Below, one piece after another: positions 22,389 to 54,568 of a stretch of DNA of 64,000 bases; within the stretch, counting starts at the first letter, position 1, and each line of letters opens with the position of its first letter. The notes beneath the pieces were generated by a model, which had not been told where the DNA came from, ran no database searches, and saw only the letters and a program-made list of their open reading frames with translations. The stretch is taken from the sequence record NC_070984.1; one strand, written 5' to 3'. The stretch comes from Escherichia phage ES17. Both the position numbers and the translations under genes were made by a program.

Positions 22389-23135
22389 TCAGAAAGGCGA
22401 ATCGTTATCATCTTCATAAGTAGAAGCAGGCTCTTTATCAATCGTAGGAATTGAAGGAGTAGCTTCTTTCTGTTCTGTTTCAGAAGCACGAGTAATTTCA
22501 CGACCAGCCAGAGGCATGTTCTTAGCGTCATTAGCTTGAGTAAGCAGATTGCGCTGGAACGGGAACATCAGTTGATAAGATGCTACGTTCTCGTCGGTTT
22601 CAGCATACGGTTCGAAGAATACCAGAGGACTACGAGCTTCACCAACTGCTGCACGATATTTAGTTGGGATTGGAGAAATGGTCTTGATGGAGTTTTTAAC
22701 TTCACCAGCTTTGTTAGTGTAAGAGTTAACCAGAATGTTAACAGGCTGACCTAACAGAACATCCTTGAACCAAGACAGATCACCTTTCAGTGCTTGAATA
22801 CTTGGGTCAACCATCTTGCAAAGATCAAGAATACCAGAGTTCTTAGCTCGTGGGTTTACATCATAGCTCTTGAACTGGCAAGCCGGACGTGGTTCTAATG
22901 CCTTACCATCGGAATCTTTACCAGTAGCATCAACACCAATCAGCTCGAAAGCTAAATCCATACGGAAAGCCGGATTCTTAGGAGTTACTGCTTTGGTCTT
23001 CGGGTCAATCCAAGGGTCACGATTGTGAACACCCAAACCTACTACACGAACGATACGTGCTTCGTATTCACCATCAGGGATTACATCGTAGTTGGATTTA
23101 CGGGAAGAAGTTGCGATAGTTGGAATCATAGACAT
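22389..23135 (-). CDS. ssDNA-binding protein (T7 gp2.5-like)
   Basis: 248 aa with acidic C-terminal tail ending YEDDNDSPF; own promoter motif upstream and terminator downstream. Confidence 0.5.
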   Translation of the reverse strand: MSMIPTIATSSRKSNYDVIPDGEYEARIVRVVGLGVHNRDPWIDPKTKAVTPKNPAFRMDLAFELIGVDATGKDSDGKALEPRPACQFKSYDVNPRAKNSGILDLCKMVDPSIQALKGDLSWFKDVLLGQPVNILVNSYTNKAGEVKNSIKTISPIPTKYRAAVGEARSPLVFFEPYAETDENVASYQLMFPFQRNLLTQANDAKNMPLAGREITRASETEQKEATPSIPTIDKEPASTYEDDNDSPF

Positions 23136-26116: not shown

Positions 26117-27961
26117 TTAGTGCGTATGCATCCAGTTAAGTCCAATCTGACAATCAGAGGCCAGAGGACATTCCATATTCAAATACTCACCAGCCTTCTT
26201 AACACAAAGCTCGGTGTGCTCTTTGAGTTTCTGTACATCGTTACGATTAACTGAGAACTGGCCCTCGTCGTGCATATCAATTACCTTAGCACAACGAACT
26301 CCATCCTTCTCAATCCACTTGTTAAGGAACATCATAGCGTATTTCATAACAACAGCACCAGCACATTGCAGGAGAGTGTTAAGTGCTTTATGAACCATAA
26401 CTTTACCAGTGGCATCTCGTCTCATTGTAATCTTACGACCATCAACACCAATCAAGTATCCTTGAGCAGCTTTCTCTGTCATACGATCAATGAGGATTGC
26501 AATACATGGGTTCTCTGCCAAGAAACGTGCTCGCATCACTGAACCTTCGTCAGCCCCACCACCTACAATTGAGCCAAGCTTAGCGTCGCCAGCACCGTAG
26601 TTGAATGCATAGATAAACGTTTTAGCATTGTCACGAGTAGGAAGACCAGCAAGTTTCTGGTTGTGGGAGTGGATATCACCTTCAAGGAGAATATCACGAT
26701 ACATAATAGCAGAAGCTAAACCACGTTCTGCCAGAGCTTTCTTAGCTGGGTTGTTCTCTTCAATTGCCTCAGCAAGCATATCCCTACACTCTTTAATGAG
26801 GTAGTGAGCGAGCATACGAAGTTCAAGTCCAGAACCATCATACCCTAAGAATACTTCTTTACCAGCGGGTATGTAATATTTGTAAGCACCTATAGGTTTA
26901 TCTTTCTTCCCCGGCTTACCTTTCTCGTAAATTACGTTAGTACCTTTTCGTATATAACAACCATCAGGAACAACGTTAGTAATAACGAAAGGACGAGAGT
27001 GATCACTGTCTGAGTTATAGTCAGACTCAAACAAACTGCGACACTCGTGACCAAACAGACCACGGGAGGGAATATTAACCACGATACGATGTTTGAATCG
27101 AAAAGTCGGCGTAGCGCAGCTGTTAGCTTCTGCCGAAAGTTTACCATCTTCGCGTTCCTTTGCTATGAGTCCACTGATAAGACCTAGCCTGTGAGCCGCT
27201 ACAACGCGTCTCTTAAGCAAACTTCCGACACTCCCTAGCTCACCCCCTAACCCTTCTTCAAGAGTCTCCTCGAGGTTTGTAGGAGCTGTAGGCCACTTGT
27301 TTGATGTGGCTAGTGCTTTCTTAATCTCATCAAACGTTACAGGATTACGGCGATTAGGGTTCAACCCCAAACCAAATACGTAAGCCTTCATGTAATTCTT
27401 AGTCTTAAACCTGAAATGCTTTTCTAAGAACTTCTTAATATCAGCGTCAACCATCTCGGCTGTCTGCTTCTGCTTAGCATTGCCTCGCATCCAAGCAGTA
27501 TACCATGCTTGGTACGTTCCATACTTTCTCATATCTTTCTTGATTTCGAAAGTATTCCAAGGCTTCTTAGATACGTTAAACTCTGGAGGAAGAAAGCCTT
27601 CATCCATAAGAGCTTCTTTAACTCGTGCATCTTTCGATGGGTCAAAGTCTACGTATTCGACACAGGTGAAAGCTCCACCAATATCTTCTCTCTTCAGCCC
27701 AACCCTATCACAATAGGCTTGAGGCCACTTCTGCAAAGCTCCAGACTTCTTAAACGGCTTCATATAAGTAGAGCCATCTAATCTCATCTTAGGTAAGAGA
27801 GGAATCAACTCTCTGTCAATATTAACAATAATCTCTTTAAGGAGGTGAACATACCACCGAGCATTTCTTCGGTTGAAACTCACTCCGTGCTTTGCTTGCT
27901 TAGAGATTATATCAGCGACAGTCATCTCTGTCAAAAATGGAAGAGCGTCCGGGTTGCTCAC
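26117..27961 (-). CDS. DNA polymerase, family A, T7 gp5-like polymerase domain (no exonuclease domain)
   Basis: Motif A FLGYDGSGLELRMLAHYL, motif B PTRDNAKTFIYAFNYGAGDAKLG, motif C VIDMHDEGQF; near-identical spacing to T7 gp5 C-terminal half. Confidence 0.85.
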   Translation of the reverse strand: MSNPDALPFLTEMTVADIISKQAKHGVSFNRRNARWYVHLLKEIIVNIDRELIPLLPKMRLDGSTYMKPFKKSGALQKWPQAYCDRVGLKREDIGGAFTCVEYVDFDPSKDARVKEALMDEGFLPPEFNVSKKPWNTFEIKKDMRKYGTYQAWYTAWMRGNAKQKQTAEMVDADIKKFLEKHFRFKTKNYMKAYVFGLGLNPNRRNPVTFDEIKKALATSNKWPTAPTNLEETLEEGLGGELGSVGSLLKRRVVAAHRLGLISGLIAKEREDGKLSAEANSCATPTFRFKHRIVVNIPSRGLFGHECRSLFESDYNSDSDHSRPFVITNVVPDGCYIRKGTNVIYEKGKPGKKDKPIGAYKYYIPAGKEVFLGYDGSGLELRMLAHYLIKECRDMLAEAIEENNPAKKALAERGLASAIMYRDILLEGDIHSHNQKLAGLPTRDNAKTFIYAFNYGAGDAKLGSIVGGGADEGSVMRARFLAENPCIAILIDRMTEKAAQGYLIGVDGRKITMRRDATGKVMVHKALNTLLQCAGAVVMKYAMMFLNKWIEKDGVRCAKVIDMHDEGQFSVNRNDVQKLKEHTELCVKKAGEYLNMECPLASDCQIGLNWMHTH

Positions 27962-32300: not shown

Positions 32301-32957
32301 TTAACTCTCCAAAGTTTTCTTCAGAGCTGCCCATGAGATTGGGTAGAGCTTAGCCATCTCTTCATCTACGGATTTAGCAAACACTCGAACTTCATATTGA
32401 GCGTGAGATGAGAGTCGCTGACGACACAACTCAAACCAGCCATACAAAGAACCAGTCCACACCCACTCAGTGATCATCCCCTGAGGAAGAACAAATCGAG
32501 CTTGCTCTGGTGCAATAAATTCAATCAACTTGTCATATGTTGCTAGAGAAGCTTCATATGCATCGTTAATTAACATTAATGCTTCAGCTCGCTCTCCGTC
32601 GATGAGTTGAATCCCTGAACCTGCATGGAGGTCCGAAGGTCTCGCAAAAATCTCTTTAGGGATGAAGACTTCAACTGCTCCATCTTTATACCGCCGGGAC
32701 ATTTCGTTCCACGAGAATCCAACCTGATGCTTGCCCAACTGTCTCGCAATTGCGATAGGTGCTTTGCATCGGAAACTGACTTGCGGGTGTCGGAATGGAG
32801 TACAGTGTTTTTCCCGTGCAAGGAAGTTGATAAGTTTTGTGTCTCTCTCATTTAAGTCACCTTCTCGAACAACACCGAAAGATACTCTAGCTGCATTGAC
32901 TACAGATTTGTCACTACCCATTGCTTCAATCAGTGTTGCTTGTAGTTGTTCGTTCAA
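32301..32957 (-). CDS. thyX: Flavin-dependent thymidylate synthase ThyX family, with altered RHR motif
   Basis: TPFRH..SFRCKAPIAIARQ ... SWNEMSRRY and EQARFVLPQG...AQYEVRV are ThyX-like; canonical RHR is KHQ here. Confidence 0.75.
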   Translation of the reverse strand: MNEQLQATLIEAMGSDKSVVNAARVSFGVVREGDLNERDTKLINFLAREKHCTPFRHPQVSFRCKAPIAIARQLGKHQVGFSWNEMSRRYKDGAVEVFIPKEIFARPSDLHAGSGIQLIDGERAEALMLINDAYEASLATYDKLIEFIAPEQARFVLPQGMITEWVWTGSLYGWFELCRQRLSSHAQYEVRVFAKSVDEEMAKLYPISWAALKKTLES

Positions 32958-33396
32958 TTAAAAGTTCCTTTTTTCGATTCATGTAAACTTGATGAGCTTC
33001 TTCGGCAGTTCCATACATACCTAGATGTATATCTACTTTATCAATACAAATAACAGCCCTATATCTAATAGTCCCTGATTTATATTTGACAACCTTAACA
33101 CCTTGAAGCCCTGTTTCCTTGTTTGATACCCTAGCCCCGAACTGGTTGTGGCAGTTTGTCGAGGTGTCCACCAATCTCAAGTTCTGTATTGAGTTGTTCT
33201 TCTTATTTCTATCGATATGGTCTATCTGAGAAGAAGGCCACTCTCCATAGTAAAAGAACCATGCCACTTTATGAGCTTTGTGTACTTTCCCTTTAAACCG
33301 CAGGGTTATGTACTTACTTCGAGTTCCTCCTAATTTCTTACCTTTTCGAAAGAACTCTCCAGTCTCAGGGATATACTCTAAATCATCGATTAACAT
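32926..33396 (-). CDS. HNH homing endonuclease with AP2-like DNA-binding domain
   Basis: QIDHIDRNKKNNSIQNL (HNH) plus YRAVICIDKVDIHLGMYGTAEEA (AP2-like). Confidence 0.75.
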   Translation of the reverse strand: MLIDDLEYIPETGEFFRKGKKLGGTRSKYITLRFKGKVHKAHKVAWFFYYGEWPSSQIDHIDRNKKNNSIQNLRLVDTSTNCHNQFGARVSNKETGLQGVKVVKYKSGTIRYRAVICIDKVDIHLGMYGTAEEAHQVYMNRKKELLIERTTTSNTD

Positions 33397-33661
33397 TCAG
33401 AGCTGTATCTAAAAATGCTTTCAGGTTTGCTTCAGTCTGCATACCAGAGAGGCTGTAGTGTGCACCACTGTTACGGTCAGGCACAACGAAAGCAGGGATA
33501 CTTCGTACACCATACTTAACAGCTTGTTCACGACCATCACCTTCAAGGATGTTAATCTCTTCCACTTCTACATCAAACTCCTTAACAACCTTCTCAAAGG
33601 TAGGAGCCATTGCTTTACATGGAGCACACTGATCACTATAAAACTTAATTACTTTAGGCAT
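33383..33661 (-). CDS. Thioredoxin-like protein
   Basis: 92 aa with SDQCAPCK redox motif in thioredoxin-fold position. Confidence 0.7.
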   Translation of the reverse strand: MPKVIKFYSDQCAPCKAMAPTFEKVVKEFDVEVEEINILEGDGREQAVKYGVRSIPAFVVPDRNSGAHYSLSGMQTEANLKAFLDTALNVNR

Positions 33662-33669
33662 GTAAATCC

Positions 33670-33849
33670 TTATGCAGTCAGGAGGTGAAGCAGGAATGGG
33701 ATAACAACAGCTACGATAACCATGATAGTTGATGCTGTTTGAATCTCACCTTTCTTATCAGGAGTTTCTTCAATAAGCTTACCAGAAGCCCAATAAATAC
33801 CACCACCAATAAAGATAGCCCAAATACCCCATACGATTGCTGATAACAT
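33670..33849 (-). CDS. Small two-TM membrane protein (59 aa), not in ORF track
   Basis: MLSAIVWGIWAIFIGGGIYWAS...MVIVAVVIPFLLHLL; RBS AAGGA. Confidence 0.35.
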   Translation of the reverse strand: MLSAIVWGIWAIFIGGGIYWASGKLIEETPDKKGEIQTASTIMVIVAVVIPFLLHLLTA

Positions 33850-33910
33850 ATATCTATATCCTTATAAATAAGTTCGCCCCACCTCGGGTTAGGAGACAGG
33901 GCGGAGGTTT

Positions 33911-34522
33911 TTAGTAAGACACGTCACCACTTGAATGGGACATGTTGCTCTTGACGAAGTAGCAATACTTGCCAAGACCTTCATTAATTTCTTGAAGCAT
34001 ACTCTGATCGACAGGGTAGGTGGCTAAATCACCATCAAACTCATCCATCTTCTCAATAATACACATCAAGGTCATGCACATATCAGAGAGCATACCGTCC
34101 ATGTCTAGATCAGCGTTACCCTCTGAGAACCAAGCATGAGAGAGGTAGTTAGCTGCTGTAGCATCCACTTTAACACAGTGGTAACGCATACGTTCAGCAA
34201 TACGATCTCCTACCTGTCGTGCGTAATCTTCCAGCTCATCAAACATACCATGAACACCCTGAAATCCTGCACCAGAGACGTTCCAGTGGTAGTTTTTAGC
34301 TTTGATATGCAAGAGTTCCATGTTAGCTTGTAAGCAGCTCAGGATGTGTTCTAGGCTGTTTGCACTAATCATGCCTTGCATTGTTTCAAGGCGAGAGATT
34401 GAAAGCTCAGACCGGTCTAACATACTATAACTGTCACGACCAATCTCAGGTAAATCAAAGACATTCTTATGCATTTGGGTTTTCTCCATCAAGTTCAACT
34501 GAATTAGCAACATTACGTGCAA
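33911..34522 (-). CDS. Dps / ferritin-like protein
   Basis: KNYHWNVSGAGFQGVHGMFDELEDYARQVGDRIAERM matches the Dps ferroxidase-site helix pattern. Confidence 0.65.
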   Translation of the reverse strand: MHVMLLIQLNLMEKTQMHKNVFDLPEIGRDSYSMLDRSELSISRLETMQGMISANSLEHILSCLQANMELLHIKAKNYHWNVSGAGFQGVHGMFDELEDYARQVGDRIAERMRYHCVKVDATAANYLSHAWFSEGNADLDMDGMLSDMCMTLMCIIEKMDEFDGDLATYPVDQSMLQEINEGLGKYCYFVKSNMSHSSGDVSY

Positions 34523-35754: not shown

Positions 35755-36264
35755 CTATCTTTCATCCACATTAAAGGATAGGTGAAGCCTACTTCTCATA
35801 GACTTCGCTAGGAGTTTTGCCTCTTCAAGAGTTTTCACTCCATATACAGACTCACGTTTACCATCTTTTTGAATAGATACACAGAATGTCCCGCCCTTCT
35901 CTTGGTAGACATTCTTAACTCCTAGTTTGTTATCAACCCTTGTCTTAGCATTCTGACTGTTCTCAGAGTGATAGCACTTTCTCAGGTTAGTTTCTTCTAG
36001 GTTTTCTCTGTTACCATCGGCATGATCTATTTGATATTCATCCGATAAATCCTCACCAGTATAAAGAACAAAAAGAATCCTATGATTGTGGACATGAACT
36101 CCTCCTAAGGGAATTTGATAATATCCATCTTTTGTGAGCTTGCCAGCAGGTTTACCTACTATATCATTAGCAAACTTACTAGGCTTCCTTTTCCAAGAAA
36201 GCCCTGAAGGTGATGACATGTCTATGTTAAAGAGATCAACTACTTCATCATAGCATATCAGCAT
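35755..36264 (-). CDS. HNH homing endonuclease with AP2-like domain
   Basis: YQIDHADGNRENLEETNL HNH motif; start placed at internal Met to avoid 128-nt overlap with dcd. Confidence 0.7.
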   Translation of the reverse strand: MLICYDEVVDLFNIDMSSPSGLSWKRKPSKFANDIVGKPAGKLTKDGYYQIPLGGVHVHNHRILFVLYTGEDLSDEYQIDHADGNRENLEETNLRKCYHSENSQNAKTRVDNKLGVKNVYQEKGGTFCVSIQKDGKRESVYGVKTLEEAKLLAKSMRSRLHLSFNVDER

Positions 36265-36802
36265 GATTTGTTCCACCAAAAGCTTTTGTTGGCCCTTGTT
36301 GGTTATTATATGAACCTTTCGTTGCGTAGCTGTCCTCTTCGGATGAAGAGTGTTTAAAGAATTCCATTTGACCAATACGCATTCCCGGTTTGATCAGCAG
36401 AGAGTGATGCTGTAGAACATTCTTGAATTCCATAGTTAACTGGCTACCATGCCAACCGCCGTCAGCATGACCAGCGTGCATGTGCTCTAAGAAACAACGA
36501 CCAACAGTGGACCGTAGCATGAAATCGCAGCTAATATTATCTGGCAGATTGAATGTCTCCATTGTATGAGCCAAGAAACACTCACCCGGTTTGATCACTA
36601 ACCCTTCCTCTGGAATCATAACCTCATTGAAGTTAGGAGATTCTTTAGCAGAGATATCAACAACCCCGTTAGCTGCACCTTCCATTAGAACGCGATCTCC
36701 AATACGAACATCAATGCTGGAGGAATTAACAGCTGAGTGTGGTGCATCAATAACACCATCATCAATTAATTTATGTAACTCTGGACTTCCTAGTAAACTC
36801 AT
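36248..36802 (-). CDS. dcd: dCTP deaminase (dUTPase superfamily)
   Basis: 184 aa; SSIDVRIGD ... GHADGGWHGSQLTMEF ... GMRIGQMEF matches Dcd pattern. Confidence 0.7.
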   Translation of the reverse strand: MSLLGSPELHKLIDDGVIDAPHSAVNSSSIDVRIGDRVLMEGAANGVVDISAKESPNFNEVMIPEEGLVIKPGECFLAHTMETFNLPDNISCDFMLRSTVGRCFLEHMHAGHADGGWHGSQLTMEFKNVLQHHSLLIKPGMRIGQMEFFKHSSSEEDSYATKGSYNNQQGPTKAFGGTNHADML

Positions 36803-36811: not shown

Positions 36812-38182
36812 TTAGTTATTTGTTTCCATGTCAAAAGAGATTCCACGACCCGCTTCATCGGCAAACCGAACTGTACGGGTTTGAGGTTCTAATACTTCAG
36901 GGTTGTTAGCAATAAAGCGATCAGCGAGACTATCTCCCAAATCTTGTTCCATACCTTCATCAGTCCAGATAACACGAGAAGGGGCGTTGATATCACCAAC
37001 AGCGAAACCCTGACCAGAGAACTGACGTGCGCTAACAGTTAAGCCGTTTGGTCGACCACGAGAGGGTCTAGCCATCCATCGCTCCATAGAATCACTTGTA
37101 ATACCAAGAGCTTCTTCAAAAGATGTTCTACGAGTAGGGCTTTCTCTTCGTGACTCTTGTGCTCGACGCATTGCAGGGGCTACAAACACCCCTTCAATTG
37201 CATTGTGTCGGTTAGGTTCCTCTTCTCGACCAAGCAGATCACCACCCGTGTTAGTCGTTAAATTTGTCAACCCCTCAGACCAATACGCATGAATCTGACC
37301 AGAACCGTGAAGACTAGACATAATCTGAATCTCTTCATAAGGGATTCCAAAGAATCGACTCATGTCTCGGTTAACACAATATAGAGCACTTGTTGTATCT
37401 TCAATAAGAGAAACCTGACCTAATCCATTGACTAGATGACTAACTGGCTGAGGTGTGGGAAGATATCGAGTTTGGGCCATGTATTGATGCGCAACTGCTG
37501 GAGAGGAAAATCTCAACACTTGTGAGTTAGGCCACTTCTTGTGAACATACCTGATTTCACGACTAGAGACAACCACTGGACAAGGGGAAGTCATAGCCAA
37601 ATATCCGTGAGAAGTCATGAATAAGTTGTCAAGAGTCATCGCACCACGGCACATCATAGGAAAATTATCCAATACCTCTTCAATAGAAGTAGGATAATTA
37701 AACATGAATTGGATACGAACCCCATTCCACTGAAACTCAATAATATCAGTGAATGTTAATTGAGAACCCCCAGCATAGGATTCGTTTGTAGCTTCAGCAA
37801 GAAGTGATGCATATTCAATATCTTGTGACTCTAGCCATTCCTTCACATTACTTTCAATCTCCCGTCCAAGCTCTTGCCAACGATCAGTTGGGATGAAAGT
37901 GTTTTGAGTTCTTGGTGTTTGTCCTCTGACAATAAAGATATCAATGTCATGTGGAGCTATGTTATTAAGGACAGCATCACGAACAGCCCCACCAGTAATG
38001 ATGGGACAGATACCATCTGGAATCAAGTTGTTGTTAATCAACTGTTCAATGAAGTGACGACCAACAGTGATATCAGGTTGTTGAGCAACCTTATCTTCAA
38101 TTTGGTTAATCGGGATAACAATCATTTTACATTTTCCAATATAATGAAGGTGGGTCGTAAGGGTCAAATCCCGTGAGTTCAC
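36812..38182 (-). CDS. Class II nucleotidyltransferase (CCA-adding / poly(A) polymerase head-domain family)
   Basis: [23 protein letters not shown] = GGxVRD ... DxD motif; start likely internal near 38125. Confidence 0.55.
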
Positions 38183-38684
38183 ACAAGAAAAGATAAACCT
38201 TAACAGTTAAGTTAACGTCCTGTTCACAATAAGTAAACATATCTTCAGTGAAAGCATCCCATGCTTCCTCTTGCTCACCATAATCGCCCTTAAGTTCTCC
38301 TAAGAACTCACCCCACTGCTTCAAACCATGACCCCTTGGGCCACGTCTAGGGTCGCCTTTCGGATACTCAGGACTGTCACCAATACGGTCAGGTTTAAGA
38401 TATCGACTAAGACATAAAGTGTCGAAGACGTTAAAACGATAGTTAATCAGATTGGGATACATCTTCTTCAGAGCACAAAGGTCGAAGTCAATAATATTGT
38501 GACCCACCAGTACATCTGCTTCTGTAAGTTTACGAATCCCATCTTCAATTTGGTGAGGCCGATAGCCCCACCTTTCACCAGTTTCAACATCGAAGATATA
38601 AATACACCATACTTTAGTTATGTCATCGTACAGTGCATTACTCTCGATATCGAATGCAAACACTTTCTTCTTTTTCTTTACCAC
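38127..38684 (-). CDS. 3'-5' exonuclease domain protein, T7 gp5 N-terminal homolog
   Basis: [37 protein letters not shown] parallel T7 DNAP exo motifs SDIEANAL / HNGHKYD / DTLVLSRL / YNVQDVVVT. Confidence 0.8.
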
Positions 38685-40468
38685 GGTGAAGCTCCATCTG
38701 CTTGGTTGACGAGAGAAGCTGCATCCTCTCCGTTAGTTAAAACGAATGGATTATCTTCATCAACTTCAAAGTCTTCCCTTTCTACAAGTCTCCCGGTTTC
38801 ACTGATATACTTAGTATAGCAGACACCTGTCTGACCGTAGTTACGTTCTTTCAGTAATCGAATGACTGAGAGGTTCTTAGCTAAGCCATCAGCTTGCTTG
38901 TCACGCTCAAAGCCAATGATACACTGACACCAACGCATAAGAGAACGAGAGCCAGTGAACTGCACTTCACGTACCTGTCCACCTTCTTCATGAGGAGCAC
39001 CACCTGCCGGAGCATTAAGGTGAGATAGCACGAAAGCGGTAAAGTCTAATTCTTTGCACATACCAGCAAGCTCGGAAGCAATCTTACTGATTTCAGTGTT
39101 AATCTCTGAAGGTGTTAAATGGGACACCAGAGCGGTAATGTTATCAAGGATGATGAACTTACACTGGTTTTCAACTACCCAGAAACGGATACACTGTTTA
39201 ATGTCTTCCCATTCATTCTGTCCGAAGTTGTCATACAAGAAGAATTTGTCTGCATAACGAAGTGCTTCATTACGCAAATCCTCCTCATCATATTCAACAT
39301 CAGGTCGGTGGAAAGGAATTGATGCCGACTTACCAGCAATGTTCTTAACAGACATGCCTACCTTCTCTTCCAAGAAGAAGCCACCTCCATTAAAACCATG
39401 TTCTAAGCACAGATGAGCAACCAGCTCATGAGCAATGAGTGTTTTACCACTCCCTACTCCACCACCAATTGCTACCACCTCTCCCCATCGAATACCGAAG
39501 GTCATCTCATTCAGAGTCTTCCACGGATATGGGATACCCCACTCCGCTTTCTTCAGAGCATCATCAAGGCAATCAAAGATTGTTACAGCACCAGCAGGAG
39601 ATTCCCGCTTTGCTGAGTACTTGAGAATGTTGAATAACTCTTGACCACGACCAGACAGAAGCATGTCATTCGCATCCTTAATCTCTTTCTCCACACCGTT
39701 GTATGGGAAAGTTCCTTTAGGAATACGAGCAAACTTAACATGAGGGAATAAAGAACGACCTTTTGTTAAAGCTATCTCACCTGCATCATCGTTGTCCATG
39801 CAGAGCACAACCTCCTCAAAACCATTTACGAAGTCTCGATTACGAGACAACACAGAAGAGATTGAACCTGCACCGAACGGTAAAGAAACACATGCTGGTT
39901 TGATGTTTGTTGCATTTGTAAAAGCTGTAAGGACATGGAAACCTGACATACAGGATAGCGGGTCTTCAAAAATGAACAGCTTCTTGTTGTACACATCTCC
40001 ACGTTGAGCTTGTGCCATACCAAACAAATCTGCTTCTTTCACACTGCCGACGTAATAGAACTTCTTACTATCTAGCAGCTTAACCTCATAACCAACGATG
40101 TTTCCATCACGTTCACGAGGAAAGAAGTAGCTGTCTGGTGTCTGACCATCAGTTTGACTGAGACCAATACGACACTCAAACCGCTCTGATACAGCTTTAG
40201 GGATTAAACGGCGAGTGAGTTCACCCTGAGGAAGCTCTAAGCAATCATCTAAGACTTCTCTCAACTCTTCAGGGGATAACTCTTTCTTCTCGTTTGGAGT
40301 AGGTGTAGTGCCCTTTTCGAACACTTCGTAATTCCCACAACGGTTACAACTTCCCCACTCCTCACCAGTCTCTTCGTTACGGAAGAGAATCATGTGGTTG
40401 TGGGTTTTATCACGACCATGAGAGATACATTCCTTACAACCTGTGTCTCCCAAAATGATCTTTGACAT
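38678..40468 (-). CDS. Primase-helicase (T7 gp4-like)
   Basis: N-terminal zinc ribbon CKECISHG...CNRCG, TOPRIM region, helicase Walker [10 protein letters not shown]. Confidence 0.85.
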
Positions 40469-40494: not shown

Positions 40495-40698
40495 TTAGTA
40501 GAACGAACGAATTTCATCCCACACTTGTTCCTGTTCTTTCCTATAAAAAGAAAGTTGGGTCTTGAACATCTCCACTGATGATTCAAAGTTTTTGGTTTGT
40601 GCAGCTTCAACGAAACGTTCATGTCGGTTGATTTTGCACCGTAGCATTAAATACTTGGCTTCAAGTCTCCGAAGAGCCTGCCTTTTCTCAAGATTCAC
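40495..40698 (-). CDS. Hypothetical protein
   Basis: 67 aa track ORF. Confidence 0.3.
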   Translation of the reverse strand: MNLEKRQALRRLEAKYLMLRCKINRHERFVEAAQTKNFESSVEMFKTQLSFYRKEQEQVWDEIRSFY

Positions 40699-41107
40699 TT
40701 TTCAGATACTCTGACCAGTCGCCAGATTCAACCAGAATATCTTGTTCTTCGTCGATATGATAAATCCAAGCGATAACAGTTTCACCTGAGTCCATCTTAA
40801 CAGCAATCTGAGTACGCTGATAGAAGCTGTCTTCAGGGCTACGTTTGTTGTAACCTTCCAGACGGTCATACGGACCTTCCAGACCTGCTTTGTCAGTAGC
40901 AAACACTTCTACACGAACAGGCTTATTGTTATTGCTGTGTGCGAGAGAGATGCTCGGGAAGTAGGAACCACCGTAACGGAACAGATCGAAGTTGTCTTCA
41001 GTCCAACCTTCACCAATTGACTTAGCACCAGCTCGGTCATTAACTAAATAGTTAGCTTGACCACGACGAAGAGAACCATAAGTTGCTACGTAAATTACTT
41101 CTGACAT
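40688..41107 (-). CDS. Gamma-glutamyl cyclotransferase-like (AIG2/GGCT fold) protein
   Basis: YVATYGSLRRGQANY N-terminal signature plus ...YDRLEGY...YQRTQIAV...VIAWIYH. Confidence 0.65.
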   Translation of the reverse strand: MSEVIYVATYGSLRRGQANYLVNDRAGAKSIGEGWTEDNFDLFRYGGSYFPSISLAHSNNNKPVRVEVFATDKAGLEGPYDRLEGYNKRSPEDSFYQRTQIAVKMDSGETVIAWIYHIDEEQDILVESGDWSEYLKSES

Positions 41108-41176
41108 TATCTATACCTTTGTTGGTTTGTTTAGTTTATCCGAACTAGCCTCATCTTTCGAAGAGGCTAAAGCAGA

Positions 41177-41362
41177 TTACTCTGTAATAAAGATTTTGAT
41201 TACACCGCAGATTGCTGCACTTTCAAACACTGCAACAGCTTCACTTCCTTGAAAGAAGGCCACTTTGCCATCAGAGAAGTTAAACATGTCAGCATCGAGG
41301 TCCATTGCTCGCATCTCACCAGCTGCATTGGTATCTTTAAACAGAACTTTATACTTATTCAC
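41177..41362 (-). CDS. Hypothetical protein
   Basis: 61 aa track ORF. Confidence 0.3.
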   Translation of the reverse strand: MNKYKVLFKDTNAAGEMRAMDLDADMFNFSDGKVAFFQGSEAVAVFESAAICGVIKIFITE

Positions 41363-41607
41363 AGATATGTTACTCCCTTGTCTTGTTGTGCTTCAGTGAT
41401 GATACGCTCTACACATTCCATAGAGTACTTATCACCACGTTTTAGGAAAGTTACAATTGCAGAGAATTGATTACCAATCATTCGCTGATTAGTAATACCC
41501 AACTCCTCACACAATTTACGCAACTCTTTACGAGAGCCTACAATAAGAGGCTCTTTTTGTTCCATCATTCCATTTTGTACTAGATCTTCCAATGAAAACA
41601 TATCCAT
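41359..41607 (-). CDS. Hypothetical protein
   Basis: 82 aa track ORF. Confidence 0.3.
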   Translation of the reverse strand: MDMFSLEDLVQNGMMEQKEPLIVGSRKELRKLCEELGITNQRMIGNQFSAIVTFLKRGDKYSMECVERIITEAQQDKGVTYL

Positions 41608-41613
41608 ATATCC

Positions 41614-42816
41614 TTAGTAGTTTACAACAGTGCCATCATTCAGGGTAAGGTTATTAATCTGCAACACACGACCAAGCTGACGATCACTAATTGGTGCGTT
41701 CCATCCAGAGCGGTAGAAGTTACGACCACAGAAGAACAAGATCACATTACTTGCTACAGTTGAACCATTTTCAGGATGCTTGATGTTAGCGATATAATAA
41801 CCACGACGCAGATTACGACGGGTTACAGGGTTGATCTCTAACCCTTGCTCTTCAACCTGCATTATTTCAGGGACAGGCTCCGAAGACTCTTCAACAACTG
41901 GCTCGGAGCTTTCCGCTGATAGTGCGTAATCCTCATCACCTGCTGGTGAAAATGTTTCTTCCACTTCTTCCACGGGAAGTTCGTATGCAACACGGTAGTC
42001 AGGCTCAACACCAGAGAAGCTCTTAACAAACTCAACGATGTTGTGAGTGTAGGTTTCCAGAGTTGTGCCAGTCAGGCCCGGAGCTGTATTAACTTCCAGA
42101 ACCCAAGCGTTAGTACCTTTGCTAATCAGGTCAACAGCACCGAAGTTCAAACCCAGAGCAGATACAGCTTTGTGAGCTTGAATCAGAACTTGATCAGGAG
42201 GCGCTTCAGTGAAGGAGTTAGAATAAACCCAACCAGTATGATGGTTACGAATATCTTCACGATAGCTTTCCAGTTCACGATAACCATTACGACGAATCTT
42301 CTTCTGAACGTAAGTGATAACACCTTCGAACACATGAACACGCCATTCACGACGTGGGCCTTGGATGCCTTTGGTGTACAGAGGAGCATCCGCAACACCT
42401 TCTCGCGGAAGACGAACAGTGATCCCCTCACCAGAGTGACCAGTCAAGGTTGCACGTTCATAAACAATTTCATTCCGGTTCCAGTTCTGAGCTACTTCAC
42501 GATCTACGGTGTATTCAACAGTTTTGACTTCAGCTAAACGCAGTGCGTTAAATGCTGCAACTTTGTTAGCGGCTCGGTTCAAGGCAACCACAGAGTTCAA
42601 TACAGTTGCACCGCCAAAGAAAGAATCATTATATCGACGGTTTCCGTAGTTGACAACAATATCACCAACTCGAGAACGATAACGAGAACCCTCTGATACC
42701 AGAGACATTACGTTAGCATTTAGTCGAAGTTCCTGAATCTTAGTGTTAATTGCAGAAGTAAGTTCACGAACTGAATCAGAAGGGCCATAAGGAAGAACAC
42801 GGATACGAGTAGTCAT
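41614..42816 (-). CDS. ATP-grasp enzyme
   Basis: C-terminal AVDLISKGTNAWVLEVNTAPGLTG matches ATP-grasp E-x-N Mg/ATP-binding motif. Confidence 0.6.
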   Translation of the reverse strand: MTTRIRVLPYGPSDSVRELTSAINTKIQELRLNANVMSLVSEGSRYRSRVGDIVVNYGNRRYNDSFFGGATVLNSVVALNRAANKVAAFNALRLAEVKTVEYTVDREVAQNWNRNEIVYERATLTGHSGEGITVRLPREGVADAPLYTKGIQGPRREWRVHVFEGVITYVQKKIRRNGYRELESYREDIRNHHTGWVYSNSFTEAPPDQVLIQAHKAVSALGLNFGAVDLISKGTNAWVLEVNTAPGLTGTTLETYTHNIVEFVKSFSGVEPDYRVAYELPVEEVEETFSPAGDEDYALSAESSEPVVEESSEPVPEIMQVEEQGLEINPVTRRNLRRGYYIANIKHPENGSTVASNVILFFCGRNFYRSGWNAPISDRQLGRVLQINNLTLNDGTVVNY

Positions 42817-42818
42817 TG

Positions 42819-43043
42819 TTAGATACCTTTAAGTTTAAGAATTTCGTTACGAGTTTTTTGAATCTGAGCTTCAATTTCGAAGTAGTCATTGAACGCATCG
42901 TTCTCTACTTCATCGGATGGTGCATCAATCAGACCGAAAGCGAACGGATACAGCTTTCGCTGCTCCGTTACCAATTCGATATGAACTCCTATGTAATACT
43001 GTAGGAGAGTAATCTTCGGTTTCTTAGGAACCAGATTTGACAT
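42819..43043 (-). CDS. Hypothetical protein
   Basis: 74 aa track ORF inside operon. Confidence 0.3.
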   Translation of the reverse strand: MSNLVPKKPKITLLQYYIGVHIELVTEQRKLYPFAFGLIDAPSDEVENDAFNDYFEIEAQIQKTRNEILKLKGI

Positions 43044-43257
43044 GAGGTTCTACCTTAATGCCTTTGATTTTTACATAATCAGCAAGCACGTTGTTGATCA
43101 CCGTTGGGAAAGGAACCTCAACCTGTGTTTCAAGTACTTGACCAATACCAGCTTGCATCCACTTCTGGATTGCACGAAGGTTATCACATCCTGTGCTCGT
43201 CATCGGGATACGTCGAGTAGTTACAACGTTATCCAGCATCATCTTACGAATTTCCAT
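43024..43257 (-). CDS. Hypothetical protein
   Basis: 77 aa track ORF inside operon. Confidence 0.3.
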   Translation of the reverse strand: MEIRKMMLDNVVTTRRIPMTSTGCDNLRAIQKWMQAGIGQVLETQVEVPFPTVINNVLADYVKIKGIKVEPHVKSGS

Positions 43258-43259
43258 AC

Positions 43260-45290
43260 TTAACCTCTATTCAATGAACATTTAGGAGAATTACAATAAA
43301 CTTGATTCATAGAACCAAGCGTACAACTTTCAGCATCGCGCCACGGAATCTGCTTAAAACACTCTGAGCAGTATCCGAGGGTTGACCACATTGCTTTGGT
43401 GAAGTCAGTGCTTCGGTTTCCGTCGAAGCTGACGACAGTTTTGCGGAGAGCTGTTCGTGATTCAGGAAACACACCTGCTTTCTCAGCAGGTTCCTCCTTT
43501 TTTGGCTTAGTTGAGATTGCAAAAATACTGTTGCTACGTTTCTCAACATAAGCATCAACAACATCCTCCAGAGTGATGCCTGTCTGTTTCGCTGAGGAAG
43601 GTAATACAGTCATACGACCGATCATATCTTCAGTTACACGTAAAGCGAATTCAGGACGACGGGCGTTTGTTGTATCTGTTGCTTTAATCCAGACATAACC
43701 ATCTTTGATCGTAGCATTAGACACTTTCTTCTTTACTTCTACAGCGCAGACTTTACAGATATCTTCACCACGAAGACGACTAAGTTCATCATCGAACTCA
43801 TTCTCTGTTTTAACTTCACCGCAGATTTCACAAACACCAATAGGAGTTTCCTCCTCTTCTTCCTCTTTAGGTTTAGTCAAACCTTCCAGACATTCAGGAT
43901 GCCAATAGCACTGATATGCGAAGACTGCTTTAGGTGCATCCTTCCAATCAATGTGCTTATCACAACCACCACAATCACCATGAGAGTGCGCTTCCCAGAA
44001 TTTACGAGTGATAGTAACACCATTCTTGTTGACGAAACTATCATTCATATCAAAAGGGATATCATCATCGAAGTCAGCAGTAGTTGACTCAGGCTCCTTT
44101 TTCTCCAGAGATGGGTCAACAAAACGACCTGCTGTGATCACTAAACGGACCATAGCATTGACTTCGGAGATGCAGGATACTGTCCCACGGTAAACAATTT
44201 TAGGGTCTTTCAGGGCATCCTGATAAGCCTTAATGTCTACGTTATGAACATCACCTTCGATATACTCTTGAGATTTCTCATCGTAGATATAACCAATCAT
44301 CTTACCACGAGAAGGAACAGCACCGGCAGTTGCATAAGGAACAAACTCATGCGGAGTGATTTCCACAGTCATATCGCGGCGAATATCAATGTTTCGATCG
44401 CTTGCGATTTTGTTTTGACTTACCACTGCGTTTCTTCGACGAACGTCTGCCGCTGTCACACCCGGCTTCGTGTCGTAAGGATTGCTTGTACTGCTTTTTG
44501 AGGAACTTTGATAGTTGCTTTGGCTGTAATTGTTCGAGTAGTAATTGCCCCAACGATTGACTACCGTAAAAACCGGAAGCTCGTGGGCGACCTCTTCAAC
44601 CAGTGTCATGCTGTTATTAGACATGTCAAAGATATACTCTGTACCAACTTTACACTCAAAATGCTCATCAATACGGTTCTTGTGAGACTTCGAACGCTTC
44701 AGAATCCACATCAGCATATCTTCTTCAGAAGCGCCAAACCAATCTCTGTTACAACGTGCGAGATGGAAAGGACGCTCTTCGTTACGAATGATATGAAGGC
44801 GGTTATCAGAAGCATCATGCCAGATTAAGGTGAAAGCACCATCCAGCTTTTGAATAGTCTCTGCTGCACCAATAGTGTTAATAGAGTGGCAGATGTTCTC
44901 ACTATCTACCTCGAAGTTTTTACTGTCAGGTAACAGGTCTTGGTCCATCAAGGTTCCATTATGAACCAGAGTGATGTTACCATGTTGGAAAGGATGGGCG
45001 TTCTTGGCGTTAACTGCACCTTTCGTTGCATGACGGCTGTGACCAACAATCCATGAAGGTGCTACAGTGTAAGCTGTTTCACCAGTGGTGTGCTTCTTGT
45101 ACTCATCTTGTAGGATGAATGCGAAAGAAGGAAGAGCTTCTTTATAAGTGAAGACTTCCTTAGTACTTTTACGCTGACCAAAGATACCGGAGGAATGTTG
45201 TCCTCGGAATACTCCAGCATAAAAGAGTTGGTTAAATACGTCTAAATCAGTGCTTGACAGATTACCGCCAGCTAATACGATGCCACAAAT
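43260..45290 (-). CDS. Class-II (Ntn) glutamine amidotransferase domain fused to Cys-rich C-terminal region; apparent ATT initiation
   Basis: Frame open 113 codons upstream of track start; begins ATT-TGT: (I)CGIVLAGG, VFRGQHSSGIFG, VGHSRHATKG..NAHPF, LVHNGTL are GAT-II hallmarks; C-terminus has 4 CxxC pairs. Confidence 0.75.
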   Translation of the reverse strand: MCGIVLAGGNLSSTDLDVFNQLFYAGVFRGQHSSGIFGQRKSTKEVFTYKEALPSFAFILQDEYKKHTTGETAYTVAPSWIVGHSRHATKGAVNAKNAHPFQHGNITLVHNGTLMDQDLLPDSKNFEVDSENICHSINTIGAAETIQKLDGAFTLIWHDASDNRLHIIRNEERPFHLARCNRDWFGASEEDMLMWILKRSKSHKNRIDEHFECKVGTEYIFDMSNNSMTLVEEVAHELPVFTVVNRWGNYYSNNYSQSNYQSSSKSSTSNPYDTKPGVTAADVRRRNAVVSQNKIASDRNIDIRRDMTVEITPHEFVPYATAGAVPSRGKMIGYIYDEKSQEYIEGDVHNVDIKAYQDALKDPKIVYRGTVSCISEVNAMVRLVITAGRFVDPSLEKKEPESTTADFDDDIPFDMNDSFVNKNGVTITRKFWEAHSHGDCGGCDKHIDWKDAPKAVFAYQCYWHPECLEGLTKPKEEEEEETPIGVCEICGEVKTENEFDDELSRLRGEDICKVCAVEVKKKVSNATIKDGYVWIKATDTTNARRPEFALRVTEDMIGRMTVLPSSAKQTGITLEDVVDAYVEKRSNSIFAISTKPKKEEPAEKAGVFPESRTALRKTVVSFDGNRSTDFTKAMWSTLGYCSECFKQIPWRDAESCTLGSMNQVYCNSPKCSLNRG

Positions 45291-45293
45291 TTT

Positions 45294-45323
45294 CTAATCC
45301 ACCTGAAGGGTAAACCCTTTCAT
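45294..45323 (-). other. 9-codon upstream mini-ORF (MKGFTLQVD) ending 3 nt before GAT-II ATT codon
   Basis: ATG 45323 with AAAGG RBS; in-frame TAG at 45294-45296, then AAA, then ATT-TGT. Confidence 0.35.
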
Positions 45324-45369
45324 CTAATTAACCTTTAAATTGTGCCCCTTTATCAGAGGCACCCATTGA

Positions 45370-46473
45370 TTACAGCGCTTGCTCTAACTGATTTTCCAGA
45401 TGGTCTGGAATGTACCCTGTGATATTGCTATCACTGTGACCTGACTCACGTAGTAAGTCAAAAATAGCACGGATACGCTGTTCTGGAGCGTGTCTTACTT
45501 GAGATAGGTCTGCTGTACGAAGCATAACCAAAATCTCTTGGTACAAGTTGTTAGCGTTCCCTCGGACATACCCAAGGAAGCCATAGAAGTCTGACATAAG
45601 ACGTAAGTCAACAAGAGCCTCTCCGTTGGAGTTGGTTCGACGTAAACGAATACGACCAGACTGTTCTACTTCATGAGAACGGCAATACAAAACATCACGG
45701 GCCATACAATATCCTGAATGCAAATCAGATTCATCCAGATTGTAATCCAGAGGAAGGTAAGGAAGCATTGGGGCAAATCGTACAGTATTTAAGTGCTCAA
45801 TAAACTGATCATTGCTCATATCTGCGTTATCTAAAGCCAGCTTCTTCAACATCAAGAAGCGGTTAACCAGATTGAGAAGTTGACCACGTTTCCACTTAGG
45901 CTCACTGATACGGAACTCAATTGAACCGTATTGGGCAAGTGGCAGAAGGTTCAGAGATGTATATTTATCCCATGAACGAACCAGACGGTTGAAGAATTCT
46001 TCACCATCGTAGTTAAATGCGTCAGAGGCATTCATTACCTGTGCTTGTACCACTGCAAACGCAGGGCAGAAATTGCTACGGTAACGATGGTAGCCTGAAC
46101 ACTTGAACAGCATCTTTTCATAGAAGGTCCAAGCAAGGATGGTCTTCTTGAGGATATTACTATCAGCATCCCTCATATCCATATGAACGTGAGTAGAGCA
46201 ACGCCAAGTCCCCTCGGCGTGCGATTCAGCTACTGCTTCACTCAGGTTGTTGATAGCGTCTAACAACTCCTGTCCGTTGTAAGGTCGTGAACATACCATT
46301 TCACAACCGTTACGCAGGGAACCATCCTCTGTGCAATCCCACATATCTGCTTCGATATGTTCAGAACCTTCGAGTTCAAGTTCAATACCGACACCGCACT
46401 GAAGTGCAATTGAACTATGCGCCTCAGTTAAACGACCTTCTCGATATCCAAAAGTTTGCGCTACAGTTGTCAT
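45370..46473 (-). CDS. Glutamine-synthetase/GCS2-like amidoligase (carboxylate-amine ligase)
   Basis: GIELELEG, EDGSLRNGCE, THVHMD, GSIEFR motif series. Confidence 0.5.
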   Translation of the reverse strand: MTTVAQTFGYREGRLTEAHSSIALQCGVGIELELEGSEHIEADMWDCTEDGSLRNGCEMVCSRPYNGQELLDAINNLSEAVAESHAEGTWRCSTHVHMDMRDADSNILKKTILAWTFYEKMLFKCSGYHRYRSNFCPAFAVVQAQVMNASDAFNYDGEEFFNRLVRSWDKYTSLNLLPLAQYGSIEFRISEPKWKRGQLLNLVNRFLMLKKLALDNADMSNDQFIEHLNTVRFAPMLPYLPLDYNLDESDLHSGYCMARDVLYCRSHEVEQSGRIRLRRTNSNGEALVDLRLMSDFYGFLGYVRGNANNLYQEILVMLRTADLSQVRHAPEQRIRAIFDLLRESGHSDSNITGYIPDHLENQLEQAL

Positions 46474-47087: not shown

Positions 47088-47096
47088 GATAACCTC

Positions 47097-48867: not shown

Positions 48868-48877
48868 AACTAACCTT

Positions 48878-54491: not shown

Positions 54492-54568
54492 TGGCGCACC
54501 CTACAGGATTCGAACCTGTAACCGACGGATTAGAAATCCGATGTTCTGTCCAATTGAACTAAGGGCGC
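54492..54568 (-). tRNA. tRNA-Arg(UCU): tRNA-Arg (anticodon UCU), CCA encoded
   Basis: Manual cloverleaf: acceptor GCGCCCU/AGGGUGC (one G-U), D stem GUUC/GAAC, anticodon loop UUUCUAA, T arm ACAGG-UUCGAAU-CCUGU, discriminator G + CCA. Confidence 0.85.

What the first reader, a model, noticed from the sequence alone, without database searches (positions are those of the whole stretch)
33383..33661. Phage-encoded thioredoxin alongside a T7-type polymerase
T7 DNA polymerase uses host thioredoxin as its processivity factor. Here the phage encodes its own thioredoxin-fold protein (CAPC motif), and the polymerase-domain gene has roughly 90 more residues before motif A than T7 gp5, which could hold a thioredoxin-binding insertion. 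Alternatively it may serve ThyX or other redox chemistry.
Basis: inference. Interest (0 to 1): 0.45.

Follow-up and report, generated by a model that had tools for sequence, protein, structure and literature searches.

The report
Phage mini-thioredoxin near T7-type polymerase
This is a real and already annotated small thioredoxin gene in a phiEco32-like E. coli phage; it is almost certainly redox-active, and the published idea that it clamps the phage's T7-like DNA polymerase remains plausible but unproven.

Summary
The ORF at 33383..33661 (-) is a genuine 92-aa thioredoxin with a CAPC site (Pfam E=1.9e-13; AF2 pLDDT 92.5; best structural matches are thioredoxins). The window is a phiEco32-like (Kuravirus) podophage. 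The gene is annotated in about 100 near-identical genomes and was detected by mass spectrometry in SU10. The processivity-factor idea was published in 2021 for this phage group.

New here: the 614-aa polymerase subunit is T7-type and has a shortened homologue of T7's thioredoxin-binding loop (residues 53-104, 52 versus 76 aa). It includes the docking strand (T7 APYTPVE = GGAFTCVE). The roughly 105 extra residues before motif A are not that loop. They are variable insertions elsewhere.

The loop is present in all 104 homologues examined, including Pseudomonas LUZ24-like phages that encode no thioredoxin. Both cysteines are invariant, although T7-type processivity does not need them. This phage has no ribonucleotide reductase, and relative GAP52 keeps the thioredoxin without ThyX or class I RNR.

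Best reading (0.45): a redox-active reductant supporting deoxynucleotide supply, most likely through host enzymes. Processivity subunit: about 0.3. No complex prediction could be run.

The parts
33383..33661 (-). Thioredoxin gene (92 aa). It has the minimal Trx fold and lacks the N-terminal beta1-alpha1 of classical TrxA.
33617..33628 (-). Active-site CAPC (C12-A13-P14-C15). It is preceded by Q11 where classical Trx has W31.
   Evidence: C-x-P-C is invariant in 15 cluster representatives, and CxxC is present in 35/35 mini-Trx relatives
33494..33505 (-). R53-S54-I55-P56, the cis-Pro substrate-groove loop. It corresponds to E. coli R73-G74-I75-P76, the residues that contact the T7 TBD.
   Evidence: T7 contacts taken from PMC5984650
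33644..33646 (-). K6 at the position of the buried Asp26 of E. coli Trx. It is invariant in this family.
26117..27961 (-). T7-type family A DNA polymerase, polymerase subunit only (614 aa, GTG start).
27650..27805 (-). Thumb-tip element homologous to the T7 thioredoxin-binding domain (residues 53-104; 52 aa against 76 in T7).
   Evidence: present in 104/104 homologues
27653..27679 (-). GGAFTCVEY (residues 95-103), equivalent to the T7 docking strand G323-A-P-Y-T327-P-V329-E330-H.
27302..27556 (-). Helical thumb insertion (residues 136-220), which accounts for most of the 'extra residues'. It is variable and is not the TBD.
26858..27025 (-). Beta-rich insertion before motif A (residues 313-368).
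26819..26845 (-). Motif A (GYDGSGLEL, D375 = T7 D475).
26588..26635 (-). Motif B (RDNAKTFIYAFNYGAG), with Tyr at the position of T7 Y526.
38127..38684 (-). Separate 3'-5' exonuclease subunit of the split polymerase.
38678..40468 (-). T7 gp4-like primase/helicase. Its acidic C-terminal tail ends in W.
32301..32957 (-). ThyX, the next conserved gene downstream of the thioredoxin gene.
32926..33396 (-). HNH homing endonuclease inserted between Trx and ThyX. It is absent in Bas90.
33670..33849 (-). 59-aa predicted membrane protein directly upstream of Trx (8-nt gap).
33911..34522 (-). Dps-family ferritin-like protein, a conserved neighbour of Trx.
36248..36802 (-). dCTP deaminase, in the same nucleotide-metabolism and replication block.

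Best explanation
The gene encodes a real, expressed, redox-competent mini-thioredoxin. It belongs to a large family of 80-92-aa, mostly phage-borne thioredoxins. It is a core gene of the replication and nucleotide-metabolism block of phiEco32-like and related prolate (C3) podophages. Most likely it works as a dithiol/disulfide reductant. Its CAPC pair would be kept reduced by the host thioredoxin reductase and would pass electrons to enzymes that limit phage DNA synthesis. This phage has no ribonucleotide reductase of its own, so the prime candidate client is the host class Ia reductase NrdAB. In relatives, phage-encoded reductases could be the clients. Shown here: the fold, the active site, the conservation of both cysteines, the gene context, and the absence of a phage RNR in the window. 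Inferred: the reduction by host TrxB and the identity of the client. A second, non-exclusive role as a subunit docked on the polymerase's TBD-like loop is possible but not demonstrated.
For: The fold and motif are those of a thioredoxin. Both cysteines and the cis-Pro loop are invariant from 100% down to about 35% identity across lineages and in 35/35 fetched members of the wider mini-Trx family. T7-type processivity does not need the redox capacity (stated in the Syn5 preprint), so invariant cysteines indicate selection for redox chemistry. The gene sits among nucleotide-metabolism genes: dCTP deaminase, ThyX and Dps. In the Aeromonas relative 4_4572 the homologous mini-Trx lies directly beside nrdA. 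The family (PHROG 22) occurs in more than 600 phage records of many types, including T5-like, Streptomyces, Bacillus and crAss-like phages, most of them without a T7-type polymerase. In the only experimental precedent, cyanophage Syn5, the phage thioredoxin is redox-active and boosts genome replication, and AF3 predicts that it does not bind at the TBD whereas the host thioredoxins do. No feature of the polymerase's TBD-like loop tracks the presence or absence of a phage Trx gene.
Against: No thioredoxin-dependent client is encoded in this phage. There is no RNR in the 64-kb window, and Kuraviruses lack the RNRs of Privateer. GAP52 keeps the Trx with only a class III (NrdD/G) reductase and no ThyX. 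E. coli already has abundant TrxA and Grx1, so the benefit of an extra reductant is unclear. The protein departs from classical Trx at D26 (K6) and W31 (Q11). Its recognition by E. coli TrxB or NrdA is untested.
Confidence: 0.45

Rival explanations
1. Dedicated processivity subunit. The phage thioredoxin binds 1:1 to the shortened thioredoxin-binding loop (residues 53-104) at the thumb tip of the phage's T7-type polymerase. It would lock the polymerase on primer-template as E. coli TrxA does for T7 gp5, making replication independent of host trxA. This may be in addition to a redox role.
For: The polymerase is T7-type. It has a collinear homologue of the TBD. The docking strand F98-T99-C-V101-E102-Y-V-D-F-D-P-S matches T7 Y326-T327-P-V329-E330-H-V-V-F-N-P-S, and the TBD-plus-H1 alignment scores z=9.8, reached by 0 of 2000 shuffles. 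The T7 residues that contact Trx (T327, V329, E330) are identical here, and the Trx residues that contact the TBD (R73, I75, cis-P76, G92) are kept as R53, I55, P56 and G73. The KPFKxxG motif and the docking strand are more conserved (0.72 and 0.67) than the protein average (0.54). Trx and polymerase are both core genes of all C3 phages. Trx is retained in Kuravirus (no RNR) and in GAP52 (no class I RNR, no ThyX). The helicase and a 248-aa ORF have acidic C-terminal tails ending in an aromatic residue, as in the T7 replisome. The TBD-Trx interaction is highly specific, since a 57%-identical Trx fails for T7, so a diverged loop could need its own partner.
Against: The same loop and docking strand are present in all 104 homologues, including Bruynoghevirus PaP4, which has no Trx gene. 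Loop sequence does not differ between lineages with and without a Trx gene. A 119-kb relative with a 49%-identical polymerase has no Trx within 10 kb. Both cysteines are invariant although they are dispensable for processivity. The loop is 24 residues shorter than in T7, and the T7 contact residues Y265 and E319 fall in gaps. The loop is predicted to be well ordered on its own, with pLDDT 88-93. For a cyanophage with a half-length TBD, AF2 found no thioredoxin complex, and Syn5's own Trx was predicted not to bind the TBD. The TBD-only pairwise similarity is marginal (z=2.8, reached by 44 of 2000 shuffles).
Confidence: 0.3
2. Redox-protection module with its neighbours. The thioredoxin acts with the adjacent Dps-family protein, or with ThyX, to control peroxide or iron damage or flavin redox state around replicating phage DNA, rather than supporting ribonucleotide reduction.
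For: The order Dps, small membrane protein, Trx, ThyX is conserved in Bas90 and in two metagenomic relatives whose Trx is only about 52% identical. Dps and Trx co-occur in GAP52 as well. The neighbour is a true Dps homologue, with PDB hits at E about 3e-9. The Privateer authors filed the Trx under stress response.
Against: By established knowledge, ThyX is reduced by NAD(P)H through FAD and has no known thioredoxin requirement. GAP52 has the Trx but no ThyX. Dps has no known thioredoxin dependence. Adjacency in a tightly packed phage operon is weak evidence. A terminator-like hairpin may separate Dps from Trx.
Confidence: 0.1
3. The polymerase loop recruits the host's TrxA, as T7 does, and the phage thioredoxin plays no part in processivity. 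This is compatible with the best explanation.
For: LUZ24-like relatives share the loop and encode no Trx, so if the loop binds a thioredoxin at all, in those phages it must be the host's. Syn5 modelling favours host thioredoxins at the TBD.
Against: There is no evidence that any polymerase of this clade binds a thioredoxin. The loop is shortened and diverged, and the T7 interaction is very specific.
Confidence: 0.25

Closest known systems
T7 gp5 DNA polymerase with E. coli thioredoxin (PDB 1T7P)
   Same: The polymerase is of the T7 subfamily, with identical motif B residues including the Tyr at T7 526. Its thumb-tip insertion is homologous to the TBD and has a conserved docking strand. The replisome is gp4-like, including a helicase with an acidic tail. 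The thioredoxin has the same fold (rmsd 1.8 A to 1t7p_B).
   Different: The thioredoxin is phage-encoded, about 30% identical to TrxA, and lacks the N-terminal beta-alpha unit. It has K, Y and Q in place of D26, W28 and W31, and S in place of G74. The loop is 52 aa rather than 76. The exonuclease is a separate gene 10 kb away. Binding has not been shown.
Thioredoxin of phiEco32, SU10, Privateer and other C3 podophages (annotated 'thiol-disulfide isomerase and thioredoxin')
   Same: It is the same gene: 96-100% identical in Kuraviruses and 41-50% identical in GAP52, 7-11 and Privateer. The processivity hypothesis was already stated in PMC7881722.
   Different: Nothing essential differs. In this window an HNH endonuclease is inserted just downstream and changes the last few residues.
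Cyanophage Syn5 thioredoxin (bioRxiv 10.1101/2025.10.05.680603)
   Same: It is a phage-encoded Trx in a phage with a T7-type polymerase, encoded near the polymerase gene. It is redox-active and enhances genome replication.
   Different: Syn5 has its own RNR as a likely client, and this phage has none. AF3 placed the Syn5 Trx away from the TBD, and no such modelling could be done here.
RNR-linked phage redoxins (T4 NrdC, T5-like 'nrdC' thioredoxins, Aeromonas phage 4_4572 gp057)
   Same: These are small CxxC thioredoxin-fold proteins of the same broad PHROG 22 family, found in nucleotide-metabolism modules.
   Different: They sit next to phage nrdA/nrdB genes. Here no phage RNR exists.
Split T7-like PolA of cyanophage S-SBP1 (Czernecki 2023) and LUZ24 'DNA polymerase part I/II'
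   Same: The exonuclease and polymerase domains are encoded as separate genes, and the TBD is shortened.
   Different: Here the two genes are about 10 kb and more than 20 genes apart. The LUZ24-like phages encode no Trx.

Membership tests
Thioredoxin (PF00085, classical TrxA type) | Thioredoxin fold (central sheet flanked by helices) | tested here: met
   Pfam 50.7 bits against a cutoff of 23.5. AF2 pLDDT is 92.5 with beta-alpha-beta-alpha-beta-beta-alpha topology. Foldseek TM is about 0.78 to E. coli Trx.
Thioredoxin (PF00085, classical TrxA type) | CxxC active site at the N-terminus of helix 1 (canonical WCGPC) | tested here: met
   QCAPC at residues 11-15. C-x-P-C is invariant, and the preceding W is replaced by Q, S or T.
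Thioredoxin (PF00085, classical TrxA type) | cis-Proline loop opposite the active site (E. coli I75-P76) | tested here: met
   R53-S54-I55-P56 is conserved. The cis conformation itself was not checked.
Thioredoxin (PF00085, classical TrxA type) | Buried Asp26 acting as acid/base for Cys35 | tested here: not met
   Lys6 occupies this position. It is invariant in the family and common in the wider mini-Trx family.
Thioredoxin (PF00085, classical TrxA type) | N-terminal beta1-alpha1 extension giving a five-stranded sheet (about 105-110 aa) | tested here: not met
   The protein is 92 aa. Alignment starts at E. coli residue 21-24, and the model has four strands.
Thioredoxin (PF00085, classical TrxA type) | Disulfide reductase activity and recycling by thioredoxin reductase | not testable with these tools
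   This needs biochemistry.
T7-type processivity factor (thioredoxin bound to the polymerase TBD) | The partner is a T7-subfamily PolA | tested here: met
T7-type processivity factor (thioredoxin bound to the polymerase TBD) | The polymerase carries the TBD insertion between thumb helices H and H1 | tested here: inconclusive
   A collinear 52-aa element is present with a conserved docking strand. The TBD-plus-H1 alignment scores z=9.8, but the TBD alone scores z=2.8. The element is 24 aa shorter, and T7 Y265 and E319 fall in gaps.
T7-type processivity factor (thioredoxin bound to the polymerase TBD) | Physical 1:1 complex between thioredoxin and the loop | not testable with these tools
T7-type processivity factor (thioredoxin bound to the polymerase TBD) | Thioredoxin raises processivity and the phage depends on it | not testable with these tools
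   This needs enzymology and genetics.
T7-type processivity factor (thioredoxin bound to the polymerase TBD) | If the subunit is phage-dedicated, the Trx gene should co-occur with the loop-bearing polymerase | tested here: not met
   The loop is present in 104/104 homologues. PaP4 has no Trx, and the Trx tblastn organism summaries list no Pseudomonas phage among the named genera, against 113 Pseudomonas polymerase-clade records.
RNR-associated phage redoxin (NrdC/NrdH-like usage) | Encoded with a thioredoxin-dependent phage ribonucleotide reductase | tested here: not met
   No NrdA, NrdD or NrdG in the window. Kuraviruses lack RNRs. The feature is met in the relative 4_4572.
T7-like family A polymerase (cluster 5 of Czernecki 2023) | Motifs A, B (Tyr at position B3) and C, with best match to T7 gp5 | tested here: met
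T7-like family A polymerase (cluster 5 of Czernecki 2023) | Fused N-terminal 3'-5' exonuclease domain | tested here: not met
   The exonuclease is a separate 185-aa gene at 38127..38684.

The most novel reading that the evidence does not exclude
Kuravirus-type phages have internalised the T7 trick. Their own mini-thioredoxin, not host TrxA, would be the obligatory processivity subunit, docking on a trimmed thioredoxin-binding loop of a split (exonuclease plus polymerase) T7-type polymerase. Replication would then be independent of host trxA. The invariant cysteines would reflect either a need to stay in the reduced conformation or a second, redox job.
Probability: 0.3. Interest if true: 0.55.

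Novelty: already known. Interest (0 to 1): 0.3.

Why it matters
If the phage thioredoxin proved to be a dedicated polymerase subunit, it would be the first virus-encoded version of the classic T7-thioredoxin processivity clamp. It would also give a compact, host-independent, three-part polymerase (exonuclease, polymerase, thioredoxin) of possible biotechnological use. If it is a plain reductant, it is one more auxiliary nucleotide-metabolism gene. It would still raise a modest question about why a phage without its own ribonucleotide reductase carries one. In either case the finding is a known, annotated gene and a published hypothesis. The added value here is the mapping of the true TBD homologue and the comparative evidence that constrains the hypothesis.

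Tried and rejected

**IMG/VR scan.** The scan with the polymerase profile returned mostly distant marine T7-like contigs. Only L003 and L080 carried a Trx, so it gave little for co-occurrence.

**Literature searches.** Searches for a Kuravirus trxA dependence or for a thioredoxin link to the LUZ24 polymerase found nothing relevant.

**Extra residues as a thioredoxin-binding insertion.** I considered this and rejected it. The extra residues lie outside the H-H1 loop and are poorly conserved (0.24-0.33 against 0.54). Two of the three insertions are absent from about half the family irrespective of Trx presence.

**ThyX as the client.** I considered this and rejected it. GAP52 has the Trx but no ThyX, and ThyX chemistry needs no thioredoxin.

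**Phage RNR as the client in this phage.** Rejected, because there is none.

**ORF 22389..23135 as a gp2.5-type SSB.** This was tested by BLASTP against the PaP4 gp2.5-like protein and against PDB sequences, with no significant similarity. Only the acidic tail is reminiscent.

**Virion role.** The SU10 mass-spectrometry detection was discounted, because many non-structural middle proteins were detected in the same preparation.

Full report
**What is there**

The minus-strand ORF 33383..33661 starts with ATG and has an AAGGA ribosome-binding site about 8 nt upstream. It lies 8 nt after the stop codon of a 59-aa membrane-protein gene. It encodes 92 aa with C12-A-P-C15 at 33617..33628.

- It matches Pfam Thioredoxin at E=1.9e-13, above the curated cutoff, and PHROG 22 'thioredoxin domain'.
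- It matches many solved thioredoxins by sequence, including E. coli TrxA.
- An AF2 model (pLDDT 92.5) has the minimal beta-alpha-beta-alpha-beta-beta-alpha thioredoxin fold, without the N-terminal beta-alpha unit of classical TrxA.
- Its best structural neighbours are thioredoxins (TM about 0.78), including the chain bound to T7 polymerase.

**Which genome this is**

The window is about 95% identical to phiEco32-like (Kuravirus) E. coli podophages such as EcoN5, FH3 and Bas90. In these genomes the gene is already annotated as thioredoxin. It occurs in 129 phage records, essentially all of them prolate C3-type podophages of Escherichia, Shigella, Proteus, Salmonella and Cronobacter. The SU10 orthologue was detected by mass spectrometry.

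The hypothesis that this thioredoxin is a processivity factor for the T7-like polymerase of C3 phages was published in 2021 (PMC7881722). The finding is therefore not new.

**The polymerase**

ORF 26117..27961 (-), 614 aa, is a T7-type family A polymerase domain.

- Against PDB sequences, T7 gp5 is the best hit at E=4e-33.
- hhalign gives probability 100 and a collinear alignment.
- The AF2 model has pLDDT 92.3, and all top Foldseek hits are T7 gp5.
- Motifs A (D375), B (with the T7 Y526-type Tyr) and C are present.
- The 3'-5' exonuclease is a separate 185-aa gene at 38127..38684, next to a gp4-like primase/helicase.

**Where the thioredoxin-binding domain is**

T7's TBD spans residues 258-333, between thumb helices H and H1. 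The equivalent segment here is residues 53-104 (27650..27805), which is 52 aa against 76 in T7.

The C-terminal part is clearly homologous. F98-T-C-V-E-Y-V-D-F-D-P-S aligns with T7 Y326-T-P-V-E-H-V-V-F-N-P-S. A local alignment of the TBD plus helix H1 scores z=9.8, reached by 0 of 2000 shuffles. The TBD alone scores only z=2.8, reached by 44 of 2000 shuffles.

According to a molecular-dynamics study of the T7 complex, thioredoxin I75, R73 and A93 contact T327, V329/E330 and P325 (PMC5984650). T327, V329 and E330 are identical here. P325 is Ala in this phage but Pro in most relatives.

On the thioredoxin side, R73, I75, cis-P76 and G92 are kept as R53, I55, P56 and G73. G74 is replaced by Ser.

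In the 104-sequence family alignment the loop is present in every member. Its KPFKxxG motif (conservation 0.72) and docking strand (0.67) are more conserved than the protein average of 0.54.

**Where the extra residues are**

I count about 105 more residues than T7 between the start of the polymerase domain and motif A. They do not lie in the TBD, which is in fact 24 residues shorter than T7's. They lie in two insertions:

- a helical insertion after helix H1 (residues 136-220, about +87);
- a beta-rich insertion before motif A (residues 313-368, about +43).

A third insertion (residues 390-420) follows motif A. These segments are poorly conserved (0.24-0.33). Parts of them are missing from about half of the family (alignment).

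**Does the loop go with a phage thioredoxin?**

It does not, in any clean way.

- The closest outgroup, the LUZ24-like Pseudomonas phages (39% identical polymerase, same split architecture and synteny), has the loop but no thioredoxin. In PaP4 no ORF matched the family HMM or E. coli TrxA, and no Trx-like CxxC ORF was found.
- A 119-kb relative with a 49%-identical polymerase has no thioredoxin within 10 kb.
- Aeromonas phage 4_4572 (50%-identical polymerase) has a 76-aa mini-thioredoxin, but it sits directly beside nrdA.
- An 85-kb relative has a 70-aa CGPC mini-thioredoxin next to the exonuclease and dUTPase genes.
- The loop sequences of lineages with and without a Trx gene show no systematic difference.

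**Is it a redox protein?**

- C-x-P-C, the cis-Pro loop and G73 are invariant across the family, from 100% down to about 35% identity.
- A profile search shows that the protein belongs to a very large family of 80-92-aa mini-thioredoxins. All 35 members fetched have CxxC, and most share Lys at the E. coli D26 position.
- A typical member of this family finds more than 600 phage genomes of many kinds.
- The T7 effect is redox-independent, so strict retention of both cysteines argues that redox chemistry is under selection.

**Who could the client be?**

- The window contains no ribonucleotide reductase. Kuraviruses lack the four RNR genes of Privateer.
- The conserved local order is Dps, small membrane protein, Trx, ThyX.
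- GAP52, whose whole genome was read, has Trx and Dps with only a class III NrdD/G reductase and no ThyX. Neither ThyX nor a phage class I RNR can therefore be the general client.
- That leaves host enzymes (NrdAB being the obvious one for a phage limited by dNTP supply), Dps-linked redox protection, or the polymerase itself.

**Precedents**

In cyanophage Syn5 the phage thioredoxin is redox-active and increases genome replication. AF3 places host thioredoxins, but not the phage one, on the TBD. For cyanophage S-SBP1, which has a split polymerase and a half-length TBD, AF2 found no thioredoxin complex. The T7 TBD-thioredoxin interaction is highly specific, because a 57%-identical thioredoxin does not support wild-type T7. 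Conservation of the docking strand therefore cannot identify the partner.

**Verdict**

The gene is real, expressed and already known.

- A redox role is very likely. I put about 0.45 on the specific reading of a reductant supporting dNTP supply through host enzymes.
- The processivity-subunit idea gains one new piece of support, a bona fide shortened TBD with a conserved docking strand, together with the retention of Trx where no phage redox client exists. It loses ground from the presence of the same loop in phages without a Trx gene, the invariant cysteines and the Syn5 precedent. I put it at about 0.3, and it is not exclusive of a redox role.
- The decisive computation, multimer modelling, could not be run here.

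Noticed in passing
38127..38684 (-) and 26117..27961 (-): The family A polymerase is split. The 3'-5' exonuclease subunit and the polymerase subunit are separate genes about 10 kb and more than 20 genes apart. The same split, but only 2 kb apart, occurs in Pseudomonas phage PaP4. A 2023 survey described exo/pol splitting in T7-like PolAs as first seen in cyanophage S-SBP1 and does not mention phiEco32.
   Followed up: partly
32926..33396 (-): An HNH homing endonuclease (Pfam HNH_3, E=1.6e-13) is inserted between Trx and ThyX and overlaps both genes. It is absent in Bas90, where the two genes are 15 nt apart, and present in YW01. It alters the last residues of the thioredoxin. A second HNH gene lies at 35755..36375.
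   Followed up: partly
33911..34522 (-): A Dps-family ferritin-like protein (PDB Dps hits at E about 3e-9) is a conserved neighbour of the thioredoxin in Kuraviruses, in two metagenomic relatives and in GAP52. Why a lytic phage carries a Dps is unexplained.
   Followed up: partly
22389..23135 (-) and 38678..40468 (-): A 248-aa protein of unknown function ends in ...YEDDNDSPF, and the primase/helicase ends in ...NQADGASPW. Both are acidic tails with a terminal aromatic residue, like T7 gp2.5 and gp4, which dock on the polymerase. The 248-aa ORF showed no sequence similarity to the PaP4 gp2.5-like protein or to any PDB chain.
   Followed up: partly
36812..38182 (-): A 456-aa nucleotidyltransferase (PHROG 12715; weak PolyA_pol head domain) lies between the exonuclease subunit and dCTP deaminase. 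Its role is unknown.
   Followed up: no
40688..50077 (-): A cluster of gamma-glutamyl cyclotransferase, ATP-grasp, glutamine amidotransferase and amidoligase genes is shared with LUZ24-like Pseudomonas phages and GAP52. Its product is unknown.
   Followed up: no
33875..33903 (-): A terminator-like hairpin (11-bp stem, 7 GC pairs) lies between the Dps gene and the membrane-protein/Trx/ThyX genes. The scan found no more such hairpins than in shuffled sequence.
   Followed up: no
54492..54568 (-): There is a single tRNA-Arg(TCT) gene.
   Followed up: no
Relatives: KBNP1711, BUCT695, WS1160; clusters P0014-P0017: In several related phages the polymerase gene is interrupted by an endonuclease gene, which gives two-piece matches and truncated protein clusters of about 450 aa.
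   Followed up: no
L086 28041..28271 (Aeromonas phage 4_4572); L085 7523..7735: Two unannotated mini-thioredoxins were found. One (76 aa, WCVNC) lies next to nrdA in Aeromonas phage 4_4572. The other (70 aa, CGPC) lies next to the exonuclease and dUTPase genes in an 85-kb metagenomic relative.
   Followed up: partly
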